A program made the translations under genes and the position numbers. Below, one piece after another: positions 19,969-26,161 of a stretch of DNA of 64,000 nucleotides. Below the pieces are notes generated by a model, which saw only the letters and a program-made list of their open reading frames with translations, made no database searches and was not told where the DNA came from. This DNA comes from an uncultured Anaerolineales bacterium (lineage in GTDB: Bacteria; Chloroflexota; Anaerolineae; UBA7937; JACPPX01). Every line of letters starts with the position of its first letter. Positions within the stretch are counted from its first letter, which is position 1. The stretch is from the NCBI GenBank assembly GCA_964348195.1, contig CAYGBX010000003.1, forward strand, positions 4,789-68,788. Direction: 5' to 3'.

Positions 19969-20068
19969 AGCACGGCTCCTGTGGAAGGTCGCGGGATTAT
20001 AGCATCAGTTCACGAGACACCGCACCCCGGCTCCGACCTTAAAATGGTCCGCGATTCGCCCCATTGTT

Positions 20069-20098
20069 TTGTATCGCCATCTCGGATTATGCTATAAT
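20069..20098 (+). promoter_or_regulatory. Candidate sigma-70 promoter for the nuclease-dnaB-dnaD-dnaC cluster
   Basis: TTGTAT (20069-74), 18-nt spacer, extended -10 TGcTATAAT (20090-98), in an AT-rich intergenic patch. Confidence 0.4.
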
Positions 20099-20159
20099 GC
20101 TCATCACCCCCGAACAAGACCTATTCACCGCCCGCATCATCGGGAAGGAGCCCACAGGA

Positions 20160-20657
20160 ATGATCCGCGTCGTGGTGGACAGCATCAAGGTAAGCCTGAT
20201 CTCCCAGCACCGCCTGGTGGTACTCAAAGAGGAGGACGGAGATCGGTTCCTTCCCATCTGGATCGGCCCCTTCGAGGCCGATGCCATCACCATCGGGATG
20301 CAGTCAATCGAGATGTCGCGTCCTTTGACCCACGATCTGATCAATGAGGTGGTCGGGGGATTGAATGGCGCCATCTCCCACATCTACGTCAACGATCTGC
20401 AGGAAGACACGTTTTTCGCCCAGATCGTCATAGACCTCAACGGCAGCCGACTGGAGATCGACTCTCGGCCCTCGGATGCCATTGCCGTAGCGGTGCGGGT
20501 TGATGTGCCCATCTTTGTGTCCGAGGGGGTCTTGGATCAGGCCGGTATTCTCCCCTCAAAAGAAGAGGAAGCCCTCACCGAGGAAGAGAAGGCGAAGCTC
20601 GCCCCCTTCACTGACCTAGTGGAGAGCTTGGATCTGGACAGCCTCGGCGAGGAGTAG
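20160..20657 (+). CDS. Bifunctional nuclease family protein (DUF151)
   Basis: ATG at 20160 after GGGAAGGAG. Blocks LPIWIGPFEADAI, RPLTHDL and DSRPSDAIAVAVR are typical of DUF151. Confidence 0.8.
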   Translation: MIRVVVDSIKVSLISQHRLVVLKEEDGDRFLPIWIGPFEADAITIGMQSIEMSRPLTHDLINEVVGGLNGAISHIYVNDLQEDTFFAQIVIDLNGSRLEIDSRPSDAIAVAVRVDVPIFVSEGVLDQAGILPSKEEEALTEEEKAKLAPFTDLVESLDLDSLGEE

Positions 20658-20659
20658 CC

Positions 20660-22009
20660 GTGGCTGGCGGCCCTCTGCCTCCCCAGAACATCGAAGCGGA
20701 ACAATCGGTTCTGGGGAGTCTTCTTTTGGACACGGACGCGGTCCTCCAGGTCTCCCCGTTTCTTTTGCCCCAGGACTTCTACCAGGAGTCCCACCGCCAG
20801 ATCTACCAAGCCATCCTCGATCTTCATGAGAAGCGCCAGCCCTCCGATCTCGTTACCCTGACCGACGAGCTGGAGCGCCGGGATCAGCTGGACGCAGTCG
20901 GCGGAGCCGCCTACCTTGCCTCCCTCACCAACGCGGTCCCAAGCCCGGTCCATGTGGAGCACTACGGCCACATCGTGGAACGGATCGCTGTCCTGCGACG
21001 GCTCATCGCGGCTTCAGGCGAGATCGCGGGGATGGCCTACGAAGAATCGGAGGATGTGGACCAGATCATCGACCACGCCGAGGAGATCATCTTCGGGGTT
21101 GCCCAGCGGAGGCTCGATCGGGATCTCATTCCCCTGGCCAAACACCTGGAGGAGTACTACGACTACATCGAGCAGGTCTCCGGCGAAAAGGGCGAGATCA
21201 TGGGGCTGCCCACCGGCTTCGACGATCTCGACAAGCTCCTTGCGGGGCTCCAAAGGTCTGATCTGATCATCGTGGCCGGACGGCCCGGCATGGGAAAGAC
21301 TAGCCTGGCGCTCAGCATCGCTTTCTCCGTCGCCCAGGAGCGGAACGCCCGAATCGCCCTGTTCAGCCTGGAGATGCCGTCCCAGCAACTGGCTGCCCGA
21401 CTGATCTGCGCCGCTACCGACCGAAATTCTCGCGTCGACTCGCTGAAGCTCCGTTCGGGGAAGCTCACCGACCACCAGCTCAGCGAGGTGATGCGCGCGA
21501 TGGGGGATCTTTCCCAGTACGAGATCTACATCGACGACTCGGCGACGCTCACACCTATGGAGCTCAGAGCCAAGGCTCGGAGGCTCCATGCCGAGAAGCC
21601 GCTGGATCTCGTCATCGTGGACTACCTTCAGCTCATGCGGGCTGGCATCCGGGCCGAGAACCGCGTGCGTGAGGTGTCCCATATCTCCCAGCAGCTCAAG
21701 GCGCTGGCGAGGGAGCTCCGCGTCCCGGTTCTGGCGTGCTCCCAGCTCTCGCGCGCGGTGGAGCTGCGGCACGACAAGCGGCCGGTACTCTCCGACCTGC
21801 GTGAGAGCGGCAGTATCGAACAGGATGCAGACGTGGTGATCTTCATCTACCGCGAGGTGGTAGGCGATGAGGAAGAGGCCGAACGGGCCAACGTGGCCGA
21901 CGTGATCGTCGCAAAGCACCGGAACGGTCCTACCGGACAGGTCCAGTTGGTGTTCCTAAAGGACCGCGCTCAGTTCGTGAGCGCCGAGCTCCGAAGGGTG
22001 GCAGCTTGA
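20660..22009 (+). CDS. dnaB: Replicative DNA helicase
   Basis: PPQNIEAEQSVLGSLL N-terminus, Walker A GRPGMGKTS, IVDYLQLM, SQLSR and ESGSIEQDAD motifs. Confidence 0.95.
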   Translation: MAGGPLPPQNIEAEQSVLGSLLLDTDAVLQVSPFLLPQDFYQESHRQIYQAILDLHEKRQPSDLVTLTDELERRDQLDAVGGAAYLASLTNAVPSPVHVEHYGHIVERIAVLRRLIAASGEIAGMAYEESEDVDQIIDHAEEIIFGVAQRRLDRDLIPLAKHLEEYYDYIEQVSGEKGEIMGLPTGFDDLDKLLAGLQRSDLIIVAGRPGMGKTSLALSIAFSVAQERNARIALFSLEMPSQQLAARLICAATDRNSRVDSLKLRSGKLTDHQLSEVMRAMGDLSQYEIYIDDSATLTPMELRAKARRLHAEKPLDLVIVDYLQLMRAGIRAENRVREVSHISQQLKALARELRVPVLACSQLSRAVELRHDKRPVLSDLRESGSIEQDADVVIFIYREVVGDEEEAERANVADVIVAKHRNGPTGQVQLVFLKDRAQFVSAELRRVAA

Positions 22010-22746
22010 AACAGGAGCGGATTCCTCGCGAAGCGGGCCGAAGGGCGGAGCAGCGCGGCAAAGGTCGTGGATCGATCGAGGACCGAGAGGGCCGCCTTCT
22101 CCCAGACGCTCTCTTCCGCGGCGTGGTCCCCGCCATCGACGACCTCGCGGAGCTCAAGGTCACCCTCCATCTCCACTGGCGCCTCCGCAATCACCGCAGA
22201 CACCTTCCGCTGATCTCTCGCTCCGAGCTCGCGGCGGATGCCGTCCTGGCCCAGAGTGTGAAGGCTCCGGGCCGCAAATCGGGAGATCTCATCGCAGAGG
22301 GTCTCGAGAAGGCCGTGGCGCGAGGGACAGTCCTGCAGATCACCTCGGCTGACGAGGATTGGTATCTGTTGGCCGATGATGAGGGTCATCGTTTGGCAAA
22401 GGCCCTCGAGGCCGGAGAGATTGCCCTCGAGGGCGGCCCGCCTGACGGGGAGGCCCCGGCCCTGCAACGGCCGAACATATTCGCCCTCTACGAACAGAAC
22501 ATAGGGCTTCTCCAGCCTTTGATCGCTGAGGAGCTGCGGGAGGCGGAGTCGCGATATCCTGCCGATTGGGTGGAGGAAGCTTTCAAGATCGCGGTTGAGC
22601 AGAACGTGCGGCGATGGCGCTACATCCAGCGGATCCTAGAACGCTGGGCTGAGGAAGGAAGGGGCAATCGAGGAGCTGAGCCAGGTTCTCAAGAATCTCG
22701 ATATCGATACGTCCGCGGAAAGTACGCCGACATCGTCAAGCGATAG
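22006..22746 (+). CDS. DnaD-domain replication protein (DnaD/DnaB_2-type helicase-loading partner)
   Basis: TTG start overlapping the dnaB TGA (TTGA). C-terminal NIFALYEQNIGLLQPLIAEEL...AVEQNVRRWRYIQRILERW is the DnaD-like repeat signature. Confidence 0.7.
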   Translation: MKQERIPREAGRRAEQRGKGRGSIEDREGRLLPDALFRGVVPAIDDLAELKVTLHLHWRLRNHRRHLPLISRSELAADAVLAQSVKAPGRKSGDLIAEGLEKAVARGTVLQITSADEDWYLLADDEGHRLAKALEAGEIALEGGPPDGEAPALQRPNIFALYEQNIGLLQPLIAEELREAESRYPADWVEEAFKIAVEQNVRRWRYIQRILERWAEEGRGNRGAEPGSQESRYRYVRGKYADIVKR

Positions 22747-22837
22747 CCCGCCCGACGCAGAGGTCTGCGCCATCTGCGGCGGTCTCGGCTGGATCCGCCA
22801 GGACCTCGAACCCGACGACCCCGGCTTCGGGAGGCTG

Positions 22838-24046
22838 GTGCCTTGTCCGCACCGTGCAGGCGAGCTCGCCGAGAAGAGGCTCGACGATCTACGACGGGCC
22901 AGCAACCTCGACCATCTGGCCGACAAGACCTTCGACACCTTCCTGCCGGAGGGCATTGGACTCCCTCCCCGAAGGAAGGAGAACCTGCGGCGTGCCTTCC
23001 ATCTGGCCAAGGAGTATGCCGATGAGCCGGCAGGCTGGCTGGTGCTCACCGGCGGCTACGGGTCCGGCAAGACCCATCTCGCAGCGGCCGTCGCCAATCT
23101 GCAGCTAGAGCGAGGAAAGTCGGTTCTCTTCGTGGTGGTTCCAGACCTGCTGGACCACCTCAGAGCCACTTTTGGGCCCGAGAGCGCGGTCCCTTACGAC
23201 GAACGGTTTCAGGCCCTGCGCGAGGCGCCGCTCCTGATCCTCGACGACCTGGGAACCGAGAGCACCACGCCCTGGGCCCAGGAGAAGCTCTACCAGCTCC
23301 TGAATCACAGGCACGTAGCCCAGCTGCCCACGGTGATCACCACCAACCGTCCGCTGGAGAAGATCGAGGCTCGGCTCCGCTCACGCATGGCTGAGCCGGG
23401 GTTCTCTCAGATCTACCACATAGAAGTCCCCGACTTTCGGGGTTCGGGTGTCGGGCCCTGGGAGGATCTGGATACCCTCGGTCTCTACAGCGACAAGACC
23501 TTCGACCGCTTCAACTCGCGCCAGGGAGAACTCCCCTCGGAGGAGGTGCAGAATCTCGGGCGGGCCGTTGAGCTGGCCCGCGGCTACGCTGAGGAGCCGG
23601 AAGGGTGGCTCACCCTCACCGGCGAGTACGGGTGTGGGAAGACACACCTGGCCGCGGCGATCGCCAACCGACGCAAGGACCTGGGAGCTCCGGCCCTGTT
23701 CATCGTGGTGCCGGACCTCCTGGACCATCTGCGAGCCGCCTACGATCCCAAGAGCACGGTTTCCTACGATCAGCTGTTCGAGATCGTTCGCCACGCTCCC
23801 TTCCTAGTCCTTGACGATCTTGGGACCCAGTCGGCTACCCCCTGGGCCCGGGAGAAGCTCTATCAGATCTTCAACCACCGCTATGCTGCCCGGCTTCCCA
23901 CCGTGATCACCATGCAAGAATCCCTGGAGGAGCTGGAACGCGAGGAGCCCCGACTTGCATCGCGCCTGGCCGACGTCGCGGTCTCCACGGTCTATGCCAT
24001 TCTGGCGCCCTCTTACCGTGGGGAACCTCGAAAGACCAAGCGATAG
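22838..24046 (+). CDS. DnaC/DnaI-like helicase loader with two tandem AAA+ modules; true 5' end probably upstream (zinc-ribbon coding sequence at 22763-22850 lacks a canonical start)
   Basis: Walker A GYGSGKTHL (aa 74-80) and GYGCGKTHL (aa 264-270). Walker B LLILDDLG and FLVLDDLG, offset exactly 190 aa. In-frame upstream sequence encodes EVCAICGGLGW...LVPCPH. Confidence 0.8.
   Translation: MPCPHRAGELAEKRLDDLRRASNLDHLADKTFDTFLPEGIGLPPRRKENLRRAFHLAKEYADEPAGWLVLTGGYGSGKTHLAAAVANLQLERGKSVLFVVVPDLLDHLRATFGPESAVPYDERFQALREAPLLILDDLGTESTTPWAQEKLYQLLNHRHVAQLPTVITTNRPLEKIEARLRSRMAEPGFSQIYHIEVPDFRGSGVGPWEDLDTLGLYSDKTFDRFNSRQGELPSEEVQNLGRAVELARGYAEEPEGWLTLTGEYGCGKTHLAAAIANRRKDLGAPALFIVVPDLLDHLRAAYDPKSTVSYDQLFEIVRHAPFLVLDDLGTQSATPWAREKLYQIFNHRYAARLPTVITMQESLEELEREEPRLASRLADVAVSTVYAILAPSYRGEPRKTKR
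22916..24013 (+). repeat. Intragenic tandem duplication (~570 nt unit) of the DnaC-like ATPase module
   Basis: Module 1 is about 22916-23443 and module 2 about 23486-24013. Roughly half of the aligned residues are identical by eye, including DKTFD, PDLLDHLRA, TPWA.EKLYQ and LPTVIT. Confidence 0.8.
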
Positions 24047-24844: not shown

Positions 24845-26161
24845 CTAGGCAACTTCCTCCAGGAGCTGCGTTAGTTGCCGAGCCACACGAGGGTCCTGCT
24901 CCCCCAGCTCACTCAACATCGCGCCATAGTAGCTCTCAAGGAAGGGACTGATCGACCGAGGAGGCACCCCGTAGCTGACAAGGGCCTCGTGGACTCCAGC
25001 GGCCTCCCCCGCCAGGAGGGTCAGATCTCCCAGGGTGAGAGCAGCAGCGACCCTGCCAGCGAGGGCACCGTTCGCTACAGCTAGGTCAGTTGGCAGCATG
25101 CTTGCGGAATCCAGCGCCTCGCGCACCCTGTCCTCCACCTGATGTCGAACCGCCTGGAAGTGTTCTGCGGCTTCCCGACCGTCCGTGGCCGGCGGGGCTG
25201 GTGAGCTTAGGGAACGCTCGACGATGATCCGCTCTACGGCTTCAGGGACCTGGCCAAACTCCTCCCCCAAGAACGAGCCTGGGATACGATCTCGAACCCC
25301 GGGACGCAGATTGAAGATGCGGCCCCCGTAGGTCAGAGGAATCCCCTGCTGCTGGAGAAGGGGCGCGAACGGAAGCAGGTTGGCTGCGGTGTGGAGCTGC
25401 TGCGCGGAGAGGATGGTCAGCCGTGGCCGGCTTCGTGTCAAGGCATGCTTCATCCGGGCCACCGGTACATCGGCGCCCAGATTGACCACATCCCATCCTC
25501 TTCGCCGGAGGAGGTATGAGATGAGGAGAGGGGCAAAAACATGTCTTTCATCTGGGGGACAAGCGACAAGGATGCGACCGCTCCGGGTGGGGTGTGGGGA
25601 AGCGATAATCAGTGCCTCCAGCCGTCGCATTGCCTGCTCGCTCGCAAAGTGCTCCTGCTGAACCGTGGCACGCCCCTCTTGCCAATCCTCCCCCAACATG
25701 GCCAGACCTTCAGATATGATCTGCACAGAGACCGTCTCCGCGGGGTAGACGGCGAAGGCCTGCGCCAGAATCTCGTCCGCGCGGTGCTCCTCAAAGTCCT
25801 TGCAGGCTTGCACCCATGAACGTCGAAGTTCTTCGAGCGCCGGCCCCTCAGCCGAGCCAACGAGAGCCGTACGGATAGAGTCGTAGGCCAGCTCCACCAA
25901 GGGATCCTTGCCCTCTTCCTCCAGGCGACGCCATAGCGCCACCGCTTTGGAGATAATCAGACCCTCCTCCTGCCGGGCGACCAGCCACTTCAAAGTCTGG
26001 ACATCCCGGGGAGAGTAGAGACGGTGTCCGCCCGGAGATCGCTCAGGCATCGGCAGCCCGTACCTCCGCTCCCAGGCACGGACAGTAGCTGGCTTCAACC
26101 CCGTCTCCTTCACCACAGCCTTGAGATTGAAGCTCGCCGCGTCTCCTTCGTCATAGATCAT
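24845..26161 (-). CDS. MerR-family, B12-binding light-responsive transcriptional regulator (CarH/LitR type) with ~130-aa C-terminal extension
   Basis: N-terminal MerR HTH (FNLKAVVKETGLKPATVRAWERRYGL). W-x9-E-H motif (WQEGRATVQQEH). B12-binding Rossmann region ILVACPPDERHVFAPLLISYLLRRRGWDVVNLGADVP (E-x-H). Confidence 0.85.
   Translation of the reverse strand: MIYDEGDAASFNLKAVVKETGLKPATVRAWERRYGLPMPERSPGGHRLYSPRDVQTLKWLVARQEEGLIISKAVALWRRLEEEGKDPLVELAYDSIRTALVGSAEGPALEELRRSWVQACKDFEEHRADEILAQAFAVYPAETVSVQIISEGLAMLGEDWQEGRATVQQEHFASEQAMRRLEALIIASPHPTRSGRILVACPPDERHVFAPLLISYLLRRRGWDVVNLGADVPVARMKHALTRSRPRLTILSAQQLHTAANLLPFAPLLQQQGIPLTYGGRIFNLRPGVRDRIPGSFLGEEFGQVPEAVERIIVERSLSSPAPPATDGREAAEHFQAVRHQVEDRVREALDSASMLPTDLAVANGALAGRVAAALTLGDLTLLAGEAAGVHEALVSYGVPPRSISPFLESYYGAMLSELGEQDPRVARQLTQLLEEVA

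What the first reader, a model, noticed from the sequence alone, without database searches (positions are those of the whole stretch)
22916..24013. Helicase loader with two tandem DnaC-like AAA+ modules in one polypeptide
The Walker A (GSGKTHLAAA / GCGKTHLAAA), PDLLDHLRA, Walker B (ILDDLG / VLDDLG), TPWA.EKLYQ and LPTVIT blocks recur with an exact 190-residue (570-nt) offset. The gene therefore encodes a head-to-tail duplicated loader.

Module 1 keeps the sensor-I-like VITTN. Module 2 has VITMQ, which suggests one catalytic and one diverged or regulatory ATPase site.

DnaC/DnaI loaders normally act as homo-oligomers of single-AAA+ subunits, so a covalent dimer would fix the stoichiometry on DnaB. 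The gene sits in a dnaB - dnaD-like - dnaC-like block.
Basis: seen in the sequence. Interest (0 to 1): 0.6.

Follow-up and report, generated by a model that had tools for sequence, protein, structure and literature searches.

The report
Two-module DnaB helicase loader gene
The gene beside the cell's only replicative helicase encodes a DnaC/DnaI-type helicase loader with two ATPase modules in one chain; this layout is real, ancient and standard in Anaerolineae and related Chloroflexota, but I found no paper describing it.

Summary
The ORF contains two DnaC/DnaI-type AAA+ modules, 56% identical over 178 residues at a 190-residue offset (z = 79 against shuffles).

It is not an artefact. The two copies are only 65.5% identical as DNA. 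All 120 best database relatives and 103 fetched loci carry both modules in one open frame. A module tree indicates one ancient duplication.

It is the only DnaC-like gene in the genome. It sits in a conserved BFN-dnaB-dnaD-like-loader operon beside the only dnaB, and no DciA was found.

Both modules keep Walker A and B, the box VII arginines and the equivalents of DnaC's ssDNA-binding residues, and they are equally conserved. Module 2 has lost the sensor-I Asn (Q417 here). Across 103 loci the pattern is N/non-N in 85, N/N in 13, neither in 5, and never the reverse.

My best reading, which is inferred, is that three chains supply the six-module spiral on DnaB6, with alternating hydrolysis-competent and hydrolysis-impaired ATP sites.

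The gene really starts upstream, at ATC 22667, not at GTG 22838. It encodes an N-terminal zinc ribbon and overlaps dnaD by 80 nt.

Verdict: a new variant of a known kind, of moderate to high interest.

The parts
20064..20657 (+). Bifunctional-nuclease-domain gene, first gene of the block.
   Evidence: Pfam BFN_dom, E = 3e-39.
20660..22009 (+). dnaB replicative helicase (449 aa). It is the only DnaB_C match in the genome.
   Evidence: Pfam DnaB (E = 4.7e-35) plus DnaB_C (E = 4.7e-101). Single hit in the own genome.
22006..22746 (+). dnaD-like gene (246 aa, DnaB_2/DnaD domain). Its last 80 nt overlap the loader gene.
   Evidence: PF07261, E = 6.9e-11. TIGR01446 DnaD_dom. Present upstream of the loader in most related loci.
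22667..24046 (+). Two-module helicase-loader gene, 459 codons plus a TAG stop. The start at ATC 22667 is inferred; the mechanical ORF begins at GTG 22838.
   Evidence: for the ORF and its two modules. for the start.
22667..22746 (+). 80-nt dual-coding overlap between the dnaD-like 3' end and the loader 5' end, preceded by the purine-rich stretch GAGGAAGGAAGGGG (22651-22664).
   Evidence: There are no substitutions against the 94%-identical relative L034 across exactly 22667-22746. Differences occur at 22666 and 22747, and about 38% of codons differ in the rest of the gene. An overlap of 77-86 nt (modal 80) is family-wide.
22766..22852 (+). N-terminal zinc ribbon (C34-x2-C37 ... C60-x-H62). It is the presumed helicase-binding domain, and there is only one per chain.
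   Evidence: CAIC at 22766-22777 and CPH at 22844-22852. The family consensus is CPxCxGxG...HPDFG..PCxC. AF2 gives two beta-hairpin strands (42-44, 57-59) followed by helix 61-84, pLDDT 75-81. No Pfam match.
22919..23443 (+). AAA+ module 1 (residues 85-259).
- Walker A: K135 (23060-23074)
- Walker B: D193-D194 (23237-23254)
- Sensor I: N227 (23345-23347)
- Box VII: R236/R240 (23372-23389)
- C-terminal PDFR258
   Evidence: Foldseek matches DnaC 6qem_G (target-normalised TM-score, TMt, 0.67), DnaI 5he8 (0.76), 2w58 and 3ecc.
23444..23488 (+). Inter-module linker, predicted to be flexible.
   Evidence: pLDDT below 50 at residues 259-264 in both AF2 runs.
23489..24022 (+). AAA+ module 2 (residues 275-452).
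- Walker A: K325 (23630-23644)
- Walker B: D383-D384 (23807-23824)
- Sensor-I position: Q417, no Asn (23915-23917)
- Box VII: R429/R433 (23951-23968)
- C-terminal PSYR451

Best explanation
This is the chromosomal loader of the replicative DnaB helicase, of the DnaC/DnaI AAA+ type. Its whole ATPase module was duplicated head to tail in an ancestor of a large part of Chloroflexota.

Shown here:
- One chain (about 459 aa from ATC 22667) carries one N-terminal zinc ribbon followed by two about-175-aa loader modules.
- Both modules keep the P-loop Lys, the Walker B DD, the R-x3-R arginine helix, a C-terminal [FY]-R and the equivalents of DnaC's four ssDNA-contacting residues.
- Both modules are under equally strong purifying selection.
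- Module 2 lacks the sensor-I Asn in this lineage.
- The gene is the genome's only DnaC-like gene. It lies in a conserved dnaB - dnaD-like - loader operon next to the only dnaB, and no DciA was found.

Inferred:
- Three chains, rather than six single-module subunits, build the six-module ATP-dependent spiral that opens and loads the DnaB hexamer. That gives only three helicase-binding domains per hexamer.
- In a head-to-tail spiral of tandem units the sites must alternate. Each module-1 ATP site is completed by module-2 arginines, and each module-2 site by module-1 arginines.
- So half the sites (module 1) hydrolyse ATP. The other half (module 2, no sensor I) bind ATP mainly to hold the assembly together or to time its release.
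- Translation starts at a rare ATC codon inside the dnaD-like gene, coupling the loader's synthesis to DnaD's at a low level.
For: Duplication, and not an artefact:
- 56% identity over 178 residues, z = 79.
- 65.5% DNA identity between the copies, longest shared run 16 nt.

Conservation:
- All 120 best hits have two modules, except one with three.
- 103 of 113 fetched loci have two modules in one frame.
- 33 of 34 same-class genomes have two module matches.
- About 140 of the best 150 cluster representatives (50% identity) have two stretches.
- Named hosts include Anaerolineales, Ardenticatenales, Caldilineales, Promineifilaceae, Thermoflexus and Dehalococcoidales.

One old duplication:
- 36 of 37 module-1 sequences form one clade.
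- Module-2 sequences mirror the same groups.
- Single-module proteins of four other families lie outside.

Loader identity:
- PF01695, 112.9 bits against a cut-off of 24.1.
- PRK08116, 227.5 bits against 189.
- The nearest solved structures are DnaC 6qel, DnaI 4m4w/2w58/5he8 and Aquifex DnaC 3ec2.

Sole loader beside the sole helicase:
- One DnaC-like gene, one dnaB and no DciA in the genome.
- The dnaB-dnaD-loader order is seen in 67 of 80 two-module loci with enough flank.

Motifs:
- Walker A Lys is 100% in both modules. Walker B DD is 100% and 96%. The SR arginine is 97% and 99%.
- Equivalents of the ssDNA tetrad are R 99-100%, F/Y, T/S and W 99-100% in both modules.
- Sensor I (module 1/module 2): N/non-N in 85 loci, N/N in 13, neither in 5, non-N/N in 0.
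- A four-module relative has N, N, N, F at this position, so only the last module lost the Asn.
- E. coli DnaC N203A has no ATPase activity and the worst loading of the mutants tested (PMC8213410).
- The two modules are equally conserved, 57% and 56% mean pairwise identity.

Precedent for three contacts per hexamer: DnaB6.DciA3 (PMC13696075).

Start codon.
Against: - There is no biochemical or structural evidence for the stoichiometry or for the division of labour.
- AF2 folds each module well (pLDDT 82 and 88) but gives pTM 0.50 and 0.54. No defined module 1 - module 2 packing is therefore predicted.
- The asymmetry is not universal. 13 loci keep Asn in both modules, and 5 Dehalococcoidia-like loci have lost it in both.
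- The window's own substitute is Gln, an amide that might partly replace Asn.
- HMMER's ungapped alignment to E. coli DnaC puts the SR arginine opposite R216 rather than R220. The arginine-finger assignment therefore rests on the R-x3-R motif register.
- The zinc-ribbon domain matches no Pfam family, so helicase binding is assumed by analogy with DnaI.
- ATC is a very weak start codon in the organisms where this has been measured (from my own knowledge).
- The genome is an 88%-complete MAG, so a second loader or a DciA could lie in the missing part.
Confidence: 0.7

Rival explanations
1. Assembly or sequencing artefact: either a collapsed or duplicated repeat, or two adjacent single-module genes fused by an indel near 23445-23485.
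For: The genome is a fragmented MAG (54 contigs).
Against: The two copies differ at 34.5% of nucleotides, including 78 first- and second-position differences, and the longest shared run is 16 nt. The same uninterrupted two-module frame occurs in 103 independent loci, 120 database proteins and closed single-contig genomes. Against a 94%-identical relative, substitutions across the junction are mostly synonymous.
Confidence: 0.01
2. The gene is not the chromosomal loader. It is instead a mobile-element or prophage protein, either an IS21 IstB-type transposition helper or a phage replication-module loader.
For: The best Pfam model is IstB_IS21. Brezellec et al. 2016 regard bacterial dna[CI] genes, including the Chloroflexi one, as domesticated phage genes (PMC5109545). 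DnaD plus DnaC-like pairs are typical of phage replication modules (from my own knowledge).
Against: - There is no IstA transposase nearby. The neighbours are BFN, dnaB, dnaD-like, OsmC and a MerR/B12 regulator.
- The IstB equivalog model scores below its cut-off, 132.7 against 200.
- The gene lies beside the only dnaB of the genome.
- The same synteny holds across classes.
- The module trees follow the host groups.
- Composition is uniform across the region.
Confidence: 0.04
3. It is a two-module loader without functional asymmetry. Both ATP sites turn over, Gln417 or a neighbouring residue replaces the sensor-I Asn, and the duplication matters only for stoichiometry or stability.
For: - Walker A, Walker B, the arginine helix and the C-terminal Arg are intact in module 2.
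- Module 2 is as conserved as module 1.
- 13 lineages keep Asn in both modules.
- The window's residue is the amide Gln.
Against: Across the family the module-2 position is A, S, T, Q, R, H, V, F and others. It is not conserved as any polar residue, whereas module 1 keeps Asn in 98 of 103 loci, and the loss is strictly one-directional. In the three- and four-module relatives only the last module has lost it. N203A abolishes the ATPase activity of E. coli DnaC.
Confidence: 0.15
4. Module 2 does not join the same six-module spiral. Either six chains bind DnaB6 and the second modules form a second tier, as in two-ring AAA+ proteins, or module 2 acts as a regulator within its own chain or as an adaptor for DnaD or DnaA.
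For: Foldseek's best whole-chain hits are two-ring AAA+ proteins such as p97/VCP. AF2 gives no fixed packing of the modules, and the linker is flexible. Each module is preceded by its own copy of the 'SNL..L..TF..F' linker segment.
Against: Those whole-chain matches are poor (rmsd 12-18 A, query-normalised TM-score, TMq, 0.33-0.39) and merely reflect two AAA+ folds in one chain. Module 2 keeps the arginine helix and the ssDNA-contact equivalents expected of a working member of a DnaC-type spiral. The existence of 3- and 4-module chains is easier to fit to modules strung along one spiral than to stacked rings.
Confidence: 0.1

Closest known systems
DnaI of Bacillota (B. subtilis, G. kaustophilus 2W58/4M4W, S. 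aureus 5HE8)
   Same: - N-terminal zinc-binding domain followed by a lid-less initiator-clade AAA+ module.
- LDDLG Walker B and a T/S-N sensor I in module 1.
- Works beside a DnaD-family protein.
- Per-module fold match with target-normalised TM-score (TMt) 0.69-0.76.
   Different: - DnaI has one AAA+ module per chain and one helicase-binding domain per module. Here there are two modules behind one zinc ribbon.
- The zinc ribbon is a CxxCxGxG...CxC/H knuckle that matches no Pfam family.
- The score is below the DnaI equivalog cut-off, 138.8 against 228.
E. coli DnaC (6QEL/6QEM) and Aquifex aeolicus DnaC (3EC2/3ECC)
   Same: - Best profile match among solved structures (6qel, E = 2.9e-24).
- Equivalents of Walker A K112, sensor I N203, the R216/R220 pair, sensor II R237 and the ssDNA tetrad K143/F146/S177/Y179 can be placed in the modules.
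   Different: - DnaC is a single-module protein with a small helical N-terminal domain and forms a 6:6 complex with DnaB.
- This protein is a covalent pair whose second module lacks the N203 equivalent.
- The score is far below the DnaC equivalog cut-off, 113.6 against 357.
NCBIfam PRK08116 subfamily ('hypothetical protein', DnaC-like ATPases of about 269 aa)
   Same: This is the only curated model passed above its cut-off (227.5 against 189). It matches twice in the chain.
   Different: The model describes single-module proteins. No curated model or name exists for the two-module architecture. Sources call these proteins only 'ATP-binding protein' or 'DnaC'.
IS21 IstB transposition helper (5BQ5, 8Q3W)
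   Same: Same Pfam family (PF01695) and the same AAA+ clade.
   Different: There is no IstA partner and the context is a chromosomal replication operon. The score is below the IstB equivalog cut-off. IstB lacks the upstream arginine coupler (PMC8213410), which is present here.
AAA+ assemblies with specialised or inactive sites (clamp loader RFC / gamma complex, ORC-Cdc6) and the DnaB6.DciA3 complex
   Same: This is an analogy in how it may work: a ring or spiral in which only some ATP sites hydrolyse. The precedent for three loader contacts per DnaB hexamer is PMC13696075.
   Different: In those systems the specialised subunits are separate genes, and DciA is not an ATPase. Here specialisation arose within one chain through an internal duplication. 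The comparison is a functional analogy, not a membership claim.

Membership tests
DnaC/DnaI-type AAA+ helicase loader (initiator clade; Pfam PF01695) | Score above the curated family threshold | tested here: met
   PF01695: 112.9 bits against 24.1, two stretches. NCBIfam PRK08116: 227.5 against 189.
DnaC/DnaI-type AAA+ helicase loader (initiator clade; Pfam PF01695) | Walker A GxxGxGK[TS] and Walker B hhhhD[DE] | tested here: met
   Module 1: GSGKT 132-136 and ILDDLG 191-196. Module 2: GCGKT 322-326 and VLDDLG 381-386. Across the family the Lys is 100% in both modules and the DD is 100% and 96%.
DnaC/DnaI-type AAA+ helicase loader (initiator clade; Pfam PF01695) | Sensor-I Asn (E. coli DnaC N203) | tested here: inconclusive
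   Met in module 1: N227, aligned with the T-N of DnaC and DnaI, and kept in 98 of 103 loci. Not met in module 2: Q417, non-Asn in 90 of 103 loci.
DnaC/DnaI-type AAA+ helicase loader (initiator clade; Pfam PF01695) | Box VII arginine finger, with a second Arg one helical turn upstream (DnaC R220/R216) | tested here: met
   R236-x3-R240 in module 1 and R429-x3-R433 in module 2. The SR arginine is 97% and 99% conserved, and the upstream Arg 97% and 85%. Caveat: HMMER's ungapped register pairs the SR arginine with R216, so the finger assignment follows the R-x3-R motif by inference.
DnaC/DnaI-type AAA+ helicase loader (initiator clade; Pfam PF01695) | Sensor-II Arg near the C-terminus (DnaC R237) | tested here: inconclusive
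   A conserved [DS]-[FY]-R closes each module: R258 (92% conserved) and R451 (94%). Its equivalence to R237 rests on motif resemblance only, because the profile alignments stop before it.
DnaC/DnaI-type AAA+ helicase loader (initiator clade; Pfam PF01695) | ssDNA-contacting residues of the initiator-specific region (DnaC K143, F146, S177, Y179) | tested here: met
   Via the 6qel alignment these map to R/F(Y) in DHLRATF and T/W in TPW. They are 99-100% (R, W) conserved in both modules.
DnaC/DnaI-type AAA+ helicase loader (initiator clade; Pfam PF01695) | N-terminal helicase-binding domain | tested here: inconclusive
   A zinc ribbon (CxxC...CxH) plus a long helix is present and family-wide. It matches no Pfam family, and binding to DnaB was not testable.
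DnaC/DnaI-type AAA+ helicase loader (initiator clade; Pfam PF01695) | Genomic association with the replicative helicase, as the sole loader | tested here: met
   The gene is adjacent to the only dnaB, it is the only DnaC-like gene, and no DciA was found. The synteny is conserved. The genome is 88% complete.
DnaC/DnaI-type AAA+ helicase loader (initiator clade; Pfam PF01695) | Loads DnaB onto ssDNA in an ATP-dependent way | not testable with these tools
   This needs biochemistry with protein from a cultured relative.
DnaI (NCBIfam PRK08939 equivalog) / DnaC (PRK07952 equivalog) | Score above the equivalog cut-off | tested here: not met
   138.8 against 228 for DnaI, and 113.6 against 357 for DnaC. 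It is a relative of both and an orthologue of neither.
IS21 IstB transposition helper | Adjacent IstA transposase, and a score above the IstB equivalog cut-off | tested here: not met
   No transposase lies among the neighbours. NF038214 scores 132.7 against 200.
Two-ring (type II) AAA+ proteins such as p97/ClpB | Two full AAA+ domains, each with a helical lid, stacked as two rings, and whole-chain structural similarity | tested here: not met
   Whole-chain Foldseek hits have rmsd 12-18 A and query-normalised TM-score (TMq) of at most 0.39. Each module is a lid-less DnaC-type fold of about 175 residues.

The most novel reading that the evidence does not exclude
A natural covalent pseudo-heterodimer helicase loader. 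Three chains would form the six-module spiral on DnaB6 with only three helicase-binding domains, and ATP sites that alternate strictly between catalytic (module 1) and structural or timing (module 2). The number of modules per chain (1, 2, 3, 4) is evolvable, and the C-terminal module is the one that degenerates. If so, this would be a bacterial, single-gene route to the division of labour otherwise seen in multi-gene AAA+ loaders such as RFC and ORC-Cdc6. It would also be a ready-made system for asking which DnaC ATP sites must hydrolyse.
Probability: 0.4. Interest if true: 0.75.

Novelty: new variant of a known kind. Interest (0 to 1): 0.58.

Why it matters
Bacterial AAA+ helicase loaders are studied as homo-oligomers of identical single-module subunits. 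It is therefore hard to ask which of the six ATP sites must bind ATP and which must hydrolyse it.

Here evolution has tied the modules in pairs and, in most lineages, disabled one conserved catalytic residue in every second site, while keeping that module under full selection. That makes the site-by-site roles of ATP in helicase loading directly testable with one gene from cultured Anaerolineae or Dehalococcoidia. It also predicts an unusual 6:3 helicase:loader complex.

The result also matters for annotation. Thousands of these proteins are labelled only 'ATP-binding protein' or 'DnaC'. In this lineage the start is miscalled because the gene begins at ATC inside the upstream gene.

Tried and rejected
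The artefact was excluded by divergence of the copies and by orthologues instead.
- Inter-module geometry: two AF2 runs, the full chain and the modules alone, gave pTM 0.50 and 0.54. So I could not tell which ATP site lies within one chain and which between chains.
- Whole-chain Foldseek hits to p97/VCP were rejected as meaningless (rmsd 12-18 A).
- Pfam on the first 100 residues found nothing, even at E <= 10.
- GTG 22838 as the true start was rejected. It would cut the zinc ribbon in half, and the upstream 90 nt change mostly synonymously against L034.
- ACG 22724 (the position of the 'MPT...' starts of some homologues) and CTG 22676 were considered as starts. ATC 22667 is preferred because it aligns with ATG or GTG in 60 loci and exactly bounds the substitution-free stretch.
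- A DnaD-loader frameshift fusion was considered and set aside, because homologues have ordinary ATG or GTG starts at that column.
- Look-up of P0003 found no record.
- Rfam and tRNA scans of the window were empty.
- Literature searches found no description of a two-module loader (text and supplement of PMC5109545). The library lacks most subscription journals.
Full report
**1. What is in the sequence**

The mechanical ORF 22838..24046(+) encodes 402 residues. Aligning its two halves gives 100 identities in 178 columns (56%) and a BLOSUM62 score of 514. The offset is exactly 190 residues until a three-residue insertion near the end of the second copy. Three hundred shuffles of the second half score 33 +/- 6 (maximum 69), so z = 79.

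Pfam finds two stretches of IstB_IS21 (PF01695, E = 2.2e-32), along with weaker DnaA-ATPase and generic AAA matches.

Upstream lie a DnaB helicase (20660-22009, DnaB plus DnaB_C) and a DnaD-domain protein (22006-22746). A bifunctional-nuclease-domain gene precedes dnaB, and an OsmC gene follows the loader.

**2. Not an artefact**

At the 570-nt offset the two module DNAs are 65.5% identical. There are 46, 32 and 76 mismatches at codon positions 1, 2 and 3, and the longest shared run is 16 nt. An assembly duplication would give near-identical copies.

The alternative of two genes fused by an indel is excluded by orthologues:
- All of the 120 best database relatives (375-498 aa, 91-100% query coverage, about 60-65% identity) contain two modules, except one that contains three.
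- 103 of 113 fetched loci with a module carry two modules in one stop-free frame, including loci from closed single-contig genomes.
- Against a 94%-identical relative (L034), the gene body shows 128 synonymous and 24 non-synonymous codon differences, running straight through the junction.

**3. Distribution and age**

I sampled 301 genomes of the phylum. In that sample 199 have a match, and 33 of the 34 genomes of the window's class show two module matches. By my count from the same tables, roughly 80 genomes carry the two-module form, about 100 have single-module genes and about 100 have none.

Record titles place the two-module form in Anaerolineae/Anaerolineales, Anaerolinea, Thermanaerothrix, Ardenticatenales, Caldilineales, Promineifilaceae, Aggregatilineaceae, Thermoflexus and Dehalococcoidales. 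Small closed genomes of 1.4-1.9 Mb also have it.

A search of 1.84 billion cluster representatives with a single-module profile returned two matched stretches in about 140 of the best 150 proteins. A few have three or four. P0122 (827 aa) has four complete modules, and P0004 has three.

In a maximum-likelihood tree of 85 modules:
- 36 of 37 first modules form one clade.
- The second modules form groups that mirror the same host families.
- Single-module proteins of four other families (f19, f56, f67, f29) lie outside.
- Two single-module proteins (f42, f58) nest among second modules.

This fits one ancient duplication followed by vertical descent, with occasional secondary changes in module number.

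**4. Which gene is it**

The genome is a 1.96-Mb MAG, 88% complete. It has this one DnaC-like gene, one dnaB (the neighbour) and no DciA. The order dnaB - dnaD-like - loader was found in 67 of 80 two-module loci that had enough upstream sequence.

The nearest solved proteins by sequence profile are E. coli DnaC (6qel, E = 2.9e-24), B. subtilis and Geobacillus DnaI (4m4w, 2w58), Aquifex DnaC (3ec2), S. aureus DnaI (5he8), and then IstB. By fold, each module matches DnaC 6qem_G (target-normalised TM-score, TMt, 0.67), DnaI 5he8 (0.76), 2w58 and 3ecc.

The only curated NCBIfam model passed is PRK08116, a single-module 'hypothetical protein' subfamily, matched twice. The DnaI, DnaC and IstB equivalog models all score below their cut-offs. 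So this is a DnaC/DnaI-type loader but an orthologue of neither. Nothing nearby suggests a transposon or prophage.

**5. Anatomy of the two modules**

I use E. coli DnaC as the yardstick (Puri et al. 2021, PMC8213410). Its key residues are Walker A K112, Walker B E170, sensor I N203, arginine coupler R216, arginine finger R220, sensor II R237 and the ssDNA tetrad K143/F146/S177/Y179. I combined this with the 6qel alignment.

| Element | Module 1 | Module 2 |
|---|---|---|
| Walker A Lys | K135 | K325 |
| Walker B | D193-D194 | D383-D384 |
| Sensor I position | N227 | Q417 (no Asn) |
| Box VII arginines | R236, R240 | R429, R433 |
| C-terminal motif | PDFR258 | PSYR451 |

Across 141 two-module proteins the P-loop Lys is 100% in both modules. 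The DD is 100% and 96%, the SR arginine 97% and 99%, and the tetrad equivalents (R, F/Y, T/S, W) are essentially invariant in both.

The modules are equally conserved between species: 57% and 56% mean pairwise identity over 103 proteins. Module 2 is therefore not decaying.

The one consistent difference is sensor I. Among 103 loci the pattern (module 1/module 2) is:
- N/non-N in 85
- N/N in 13 (Ardenticatenales and families f36, f43, f30, f51, f7)
- non-N/non-N in 5 (Dehalococcoidia-like f25, f50, f62 and one other)
- non-N/N in 0

The replacing residue varies (A, S, T, Q, R, H, V and others), which is the signature of a released constraint. In the three- and four-module proteins only the last module has lost the Asn. 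In E. coli DnaC, N203A abolishes ATPase activity and is the most loading-defective of the active-site mutants.

One caveat concerns the arginines. HMMER's ungapped alignment sets the SR arginine opposite R216. I assign it as the finger because the R-x3-R spacing matches R216/R220, and because the finger position in the HMMER register holds no arginine in this family. That step is inference.

**6. How it most likely works**

Shown: one zinc ribbon, two loader modules that are both under selection, and a second module without sensor I.

Inferred: DnaC-type loaders act as a six-protomer ATP-dependent spiral under the DnaB hexamer, with each ATP site completed by the neighbour's arginines. Three tandem chains would supply six modules. 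In any head-to-tail arrangement of tandem units the sites must alternate, so module-1 P-loops face module-2 arginines and the reverse. Half of the sites would then be hydrolysis-competent. The other half would bind ATP but hydrolyse it poorly, serving to hold the assembly together or to time its release.

Only three helicase-binding domains would contact DnaB6. The DnaB6.DciA3 complex is a precedent for this (PMC13696075).

I could not determine which site lies within a chain. AF2 folds each module with confidence (mean pLDDT 82 for the full chain and 88 for the modules alone) but gives pTM 0.50 and 0.54, with a disordered linker at residues 259-264.

The N/N and x/x lineages show that the division of labour is a common outcome of the duplication, not a precondition for it.

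**7. The true start of the gene**

Homologues begin about 55-60 residues upstream of the window's GTG 22838. They start with M/V-E-x-x-x-x-[IV]-L-[KR], followed by ...TPTSS..., and then a CPxCxGxG...HPDFG..PCxC zinc ribbon.

The window encodes all of this in frame (C34-x2-C37 ... C60-x-H62). However, it has no ATG, GTG or TTG between the upstream stop (22637-22639) and 22838. Among 112 loci with the CxxC motif, only this genome and its 94%-identical relative L034 lack a canonical start before it.

The evidence for ATC 22667:
- In the alignment column of ATC 22667, 44 loci have ATG and 16 have GTG. L034 also has ATC there.
- Window and L034 differ at 22666 and at 22747 but nowhere in 22667-22746, although about 38% of codons differ in the rest of the gene. 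That 80-nt stretch is exactly the predicted overlap of the loader's 5' end with the dnaD-like 3' end, and dual coding explains the silence.
- The same 77-86-nt overlap (modal 80, loader in the +1 frame) occurs in most related loci.
- A purine-rich GAGGAAGGAAGGGG stretch lies at 22651-22664.

I conclude that the gene runs 22667-24046 (459 codons) and starts at the rare codon ATC. This step is inferred, and the GTG 22838 start is rejected.

**8. Comparison with what is known, and novelty**

Brezellec et al. 2016 list one domesticated dna[CI] gene in Chloroflexi, including Anaerolinea thermophila and Dehalococcoides. Neither the text nor the supplementary table mentions two modules. Six full-text searches found no description of a tandem or two-module bacterial helicase loader. 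The library lacks most subscription journals, so this is absence in what I could search.

Databases name these proteins only 'ATP-binding protein' or 'DnaC', and no curated model covers the architecture.

Earlier notes of this scan describe the same family in other genomes and reach the same reading. They are not independent evidence. I re-derived each point here.

I rate it a new variant of a known kind. The parts are ordinary. The covalent pairing, the one-directional loss of sensor I and the variable module number are not described elsewhere.

**9. Verdict**

Confidence that this is a genuine, conserved two-module chromosomal helicase loader is about 0.95. Confidence in the fuller mechanistic reading (three chains per DnaB hexamer, alternating competent and impaired sites, ATC start) is about 0.5-0.7. 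Interest is 0.58.

Noticed in passing
window 22667-22746 (and 22637-22838): The loader gene has no ATG, GTG or TTG before its zinc ribbon. The codon aligned with the family's usual ATG or GTG start is ATC 22667, which is also ATC in the 94%-identical relative L034. The 80 nt from that ATC to the dnaD-like stop show no substitution against L034, while the flanks and the rest of the gene differ freely. This points to dual coding and a rare ATC start.
   Followed up: yes
related loci L003-L114 (e.g. L005, L022, L038, L052): A long out-of-frame overlap of 77-86 nt (modal 80) between the 3' end of the dnaD-like gene (tail motif ...GKYA.[IL]..[HR]*) and the 5' end of the loader gene is conserved across the family. 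That is far longer than the usual 1-4-nt coupling overlaps.
   Followed up: partly
P0122 (827 aa), P0123 (792 aa), P0130, P0236, P0004: Relatives exist with three or four loader modules in one chain. In P0122 the sensor-I residues are N, N, N, F, and in P0004 they are N, N, S, so only the C-terminal module has lost the Asn. P0123 and P0130 contain near-identical internal repeats and could be recent duplications or assembly errors.
   Followed up: partly
L021, L022, L026, L032 (families f25, f62, f50; small 1.3-1.9 Mb genomes): In Dehalococcoidia-like genomes both modules lack the sensor-I Asn (A/R, S/R, D/C, S/R). That leaves a loader with no canonical sensor I at all.
   Followed up: no
L019 (G220) and L020 (G087): Two single-module loaders nest inside the module-2 clade of the tree, and L020 has Cys at the sensor-I position. 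This suggests secondary loss of module 1 rather than an ancestral single-module state.
   Followed up: no
L034:1-1216: In the closest relative the dnaB gene carries an intein (Intein_splicing plus LAGLIDADG_3). The window's dnaB (449 aa) has none. L027 also shows an intein-like insertion in its dnaB frame.
   Followed up: no
P0003 (397 aa; listed as the window's own or a near-identical record): This database protein is 100% identical to the window's loader over 94% of its length. However, it begins 'MQASSPRRGSTIYDGPATW...', which is the +1 frame of 22854-22907 joined to the loader frame. A near-identical record therefore has an indel near 22905, or a different gene call. No contig could be retrieved.
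   Followed up: partly
L027 / L028 (family f29, 5.6-6 Mb genomes): The single-module loader sits at the end of a 516-518-aa open frame. The first about 330 residues of that frame are low-complexity, Arg/Pro/Gln-rich sequence preceding the zinc ribbon.
   Followed up: no
window 24845-26161 (-): A MerR-family regulator with B12-binding domains (a CarH-like light or B12 sensor architecture) lies just downstream of the replication block.
   Followed up: no
window 1-64000: There are no tRNA genes and no Rfam family above its gathering score in the whole 64-kb window.
   Followed up: yes
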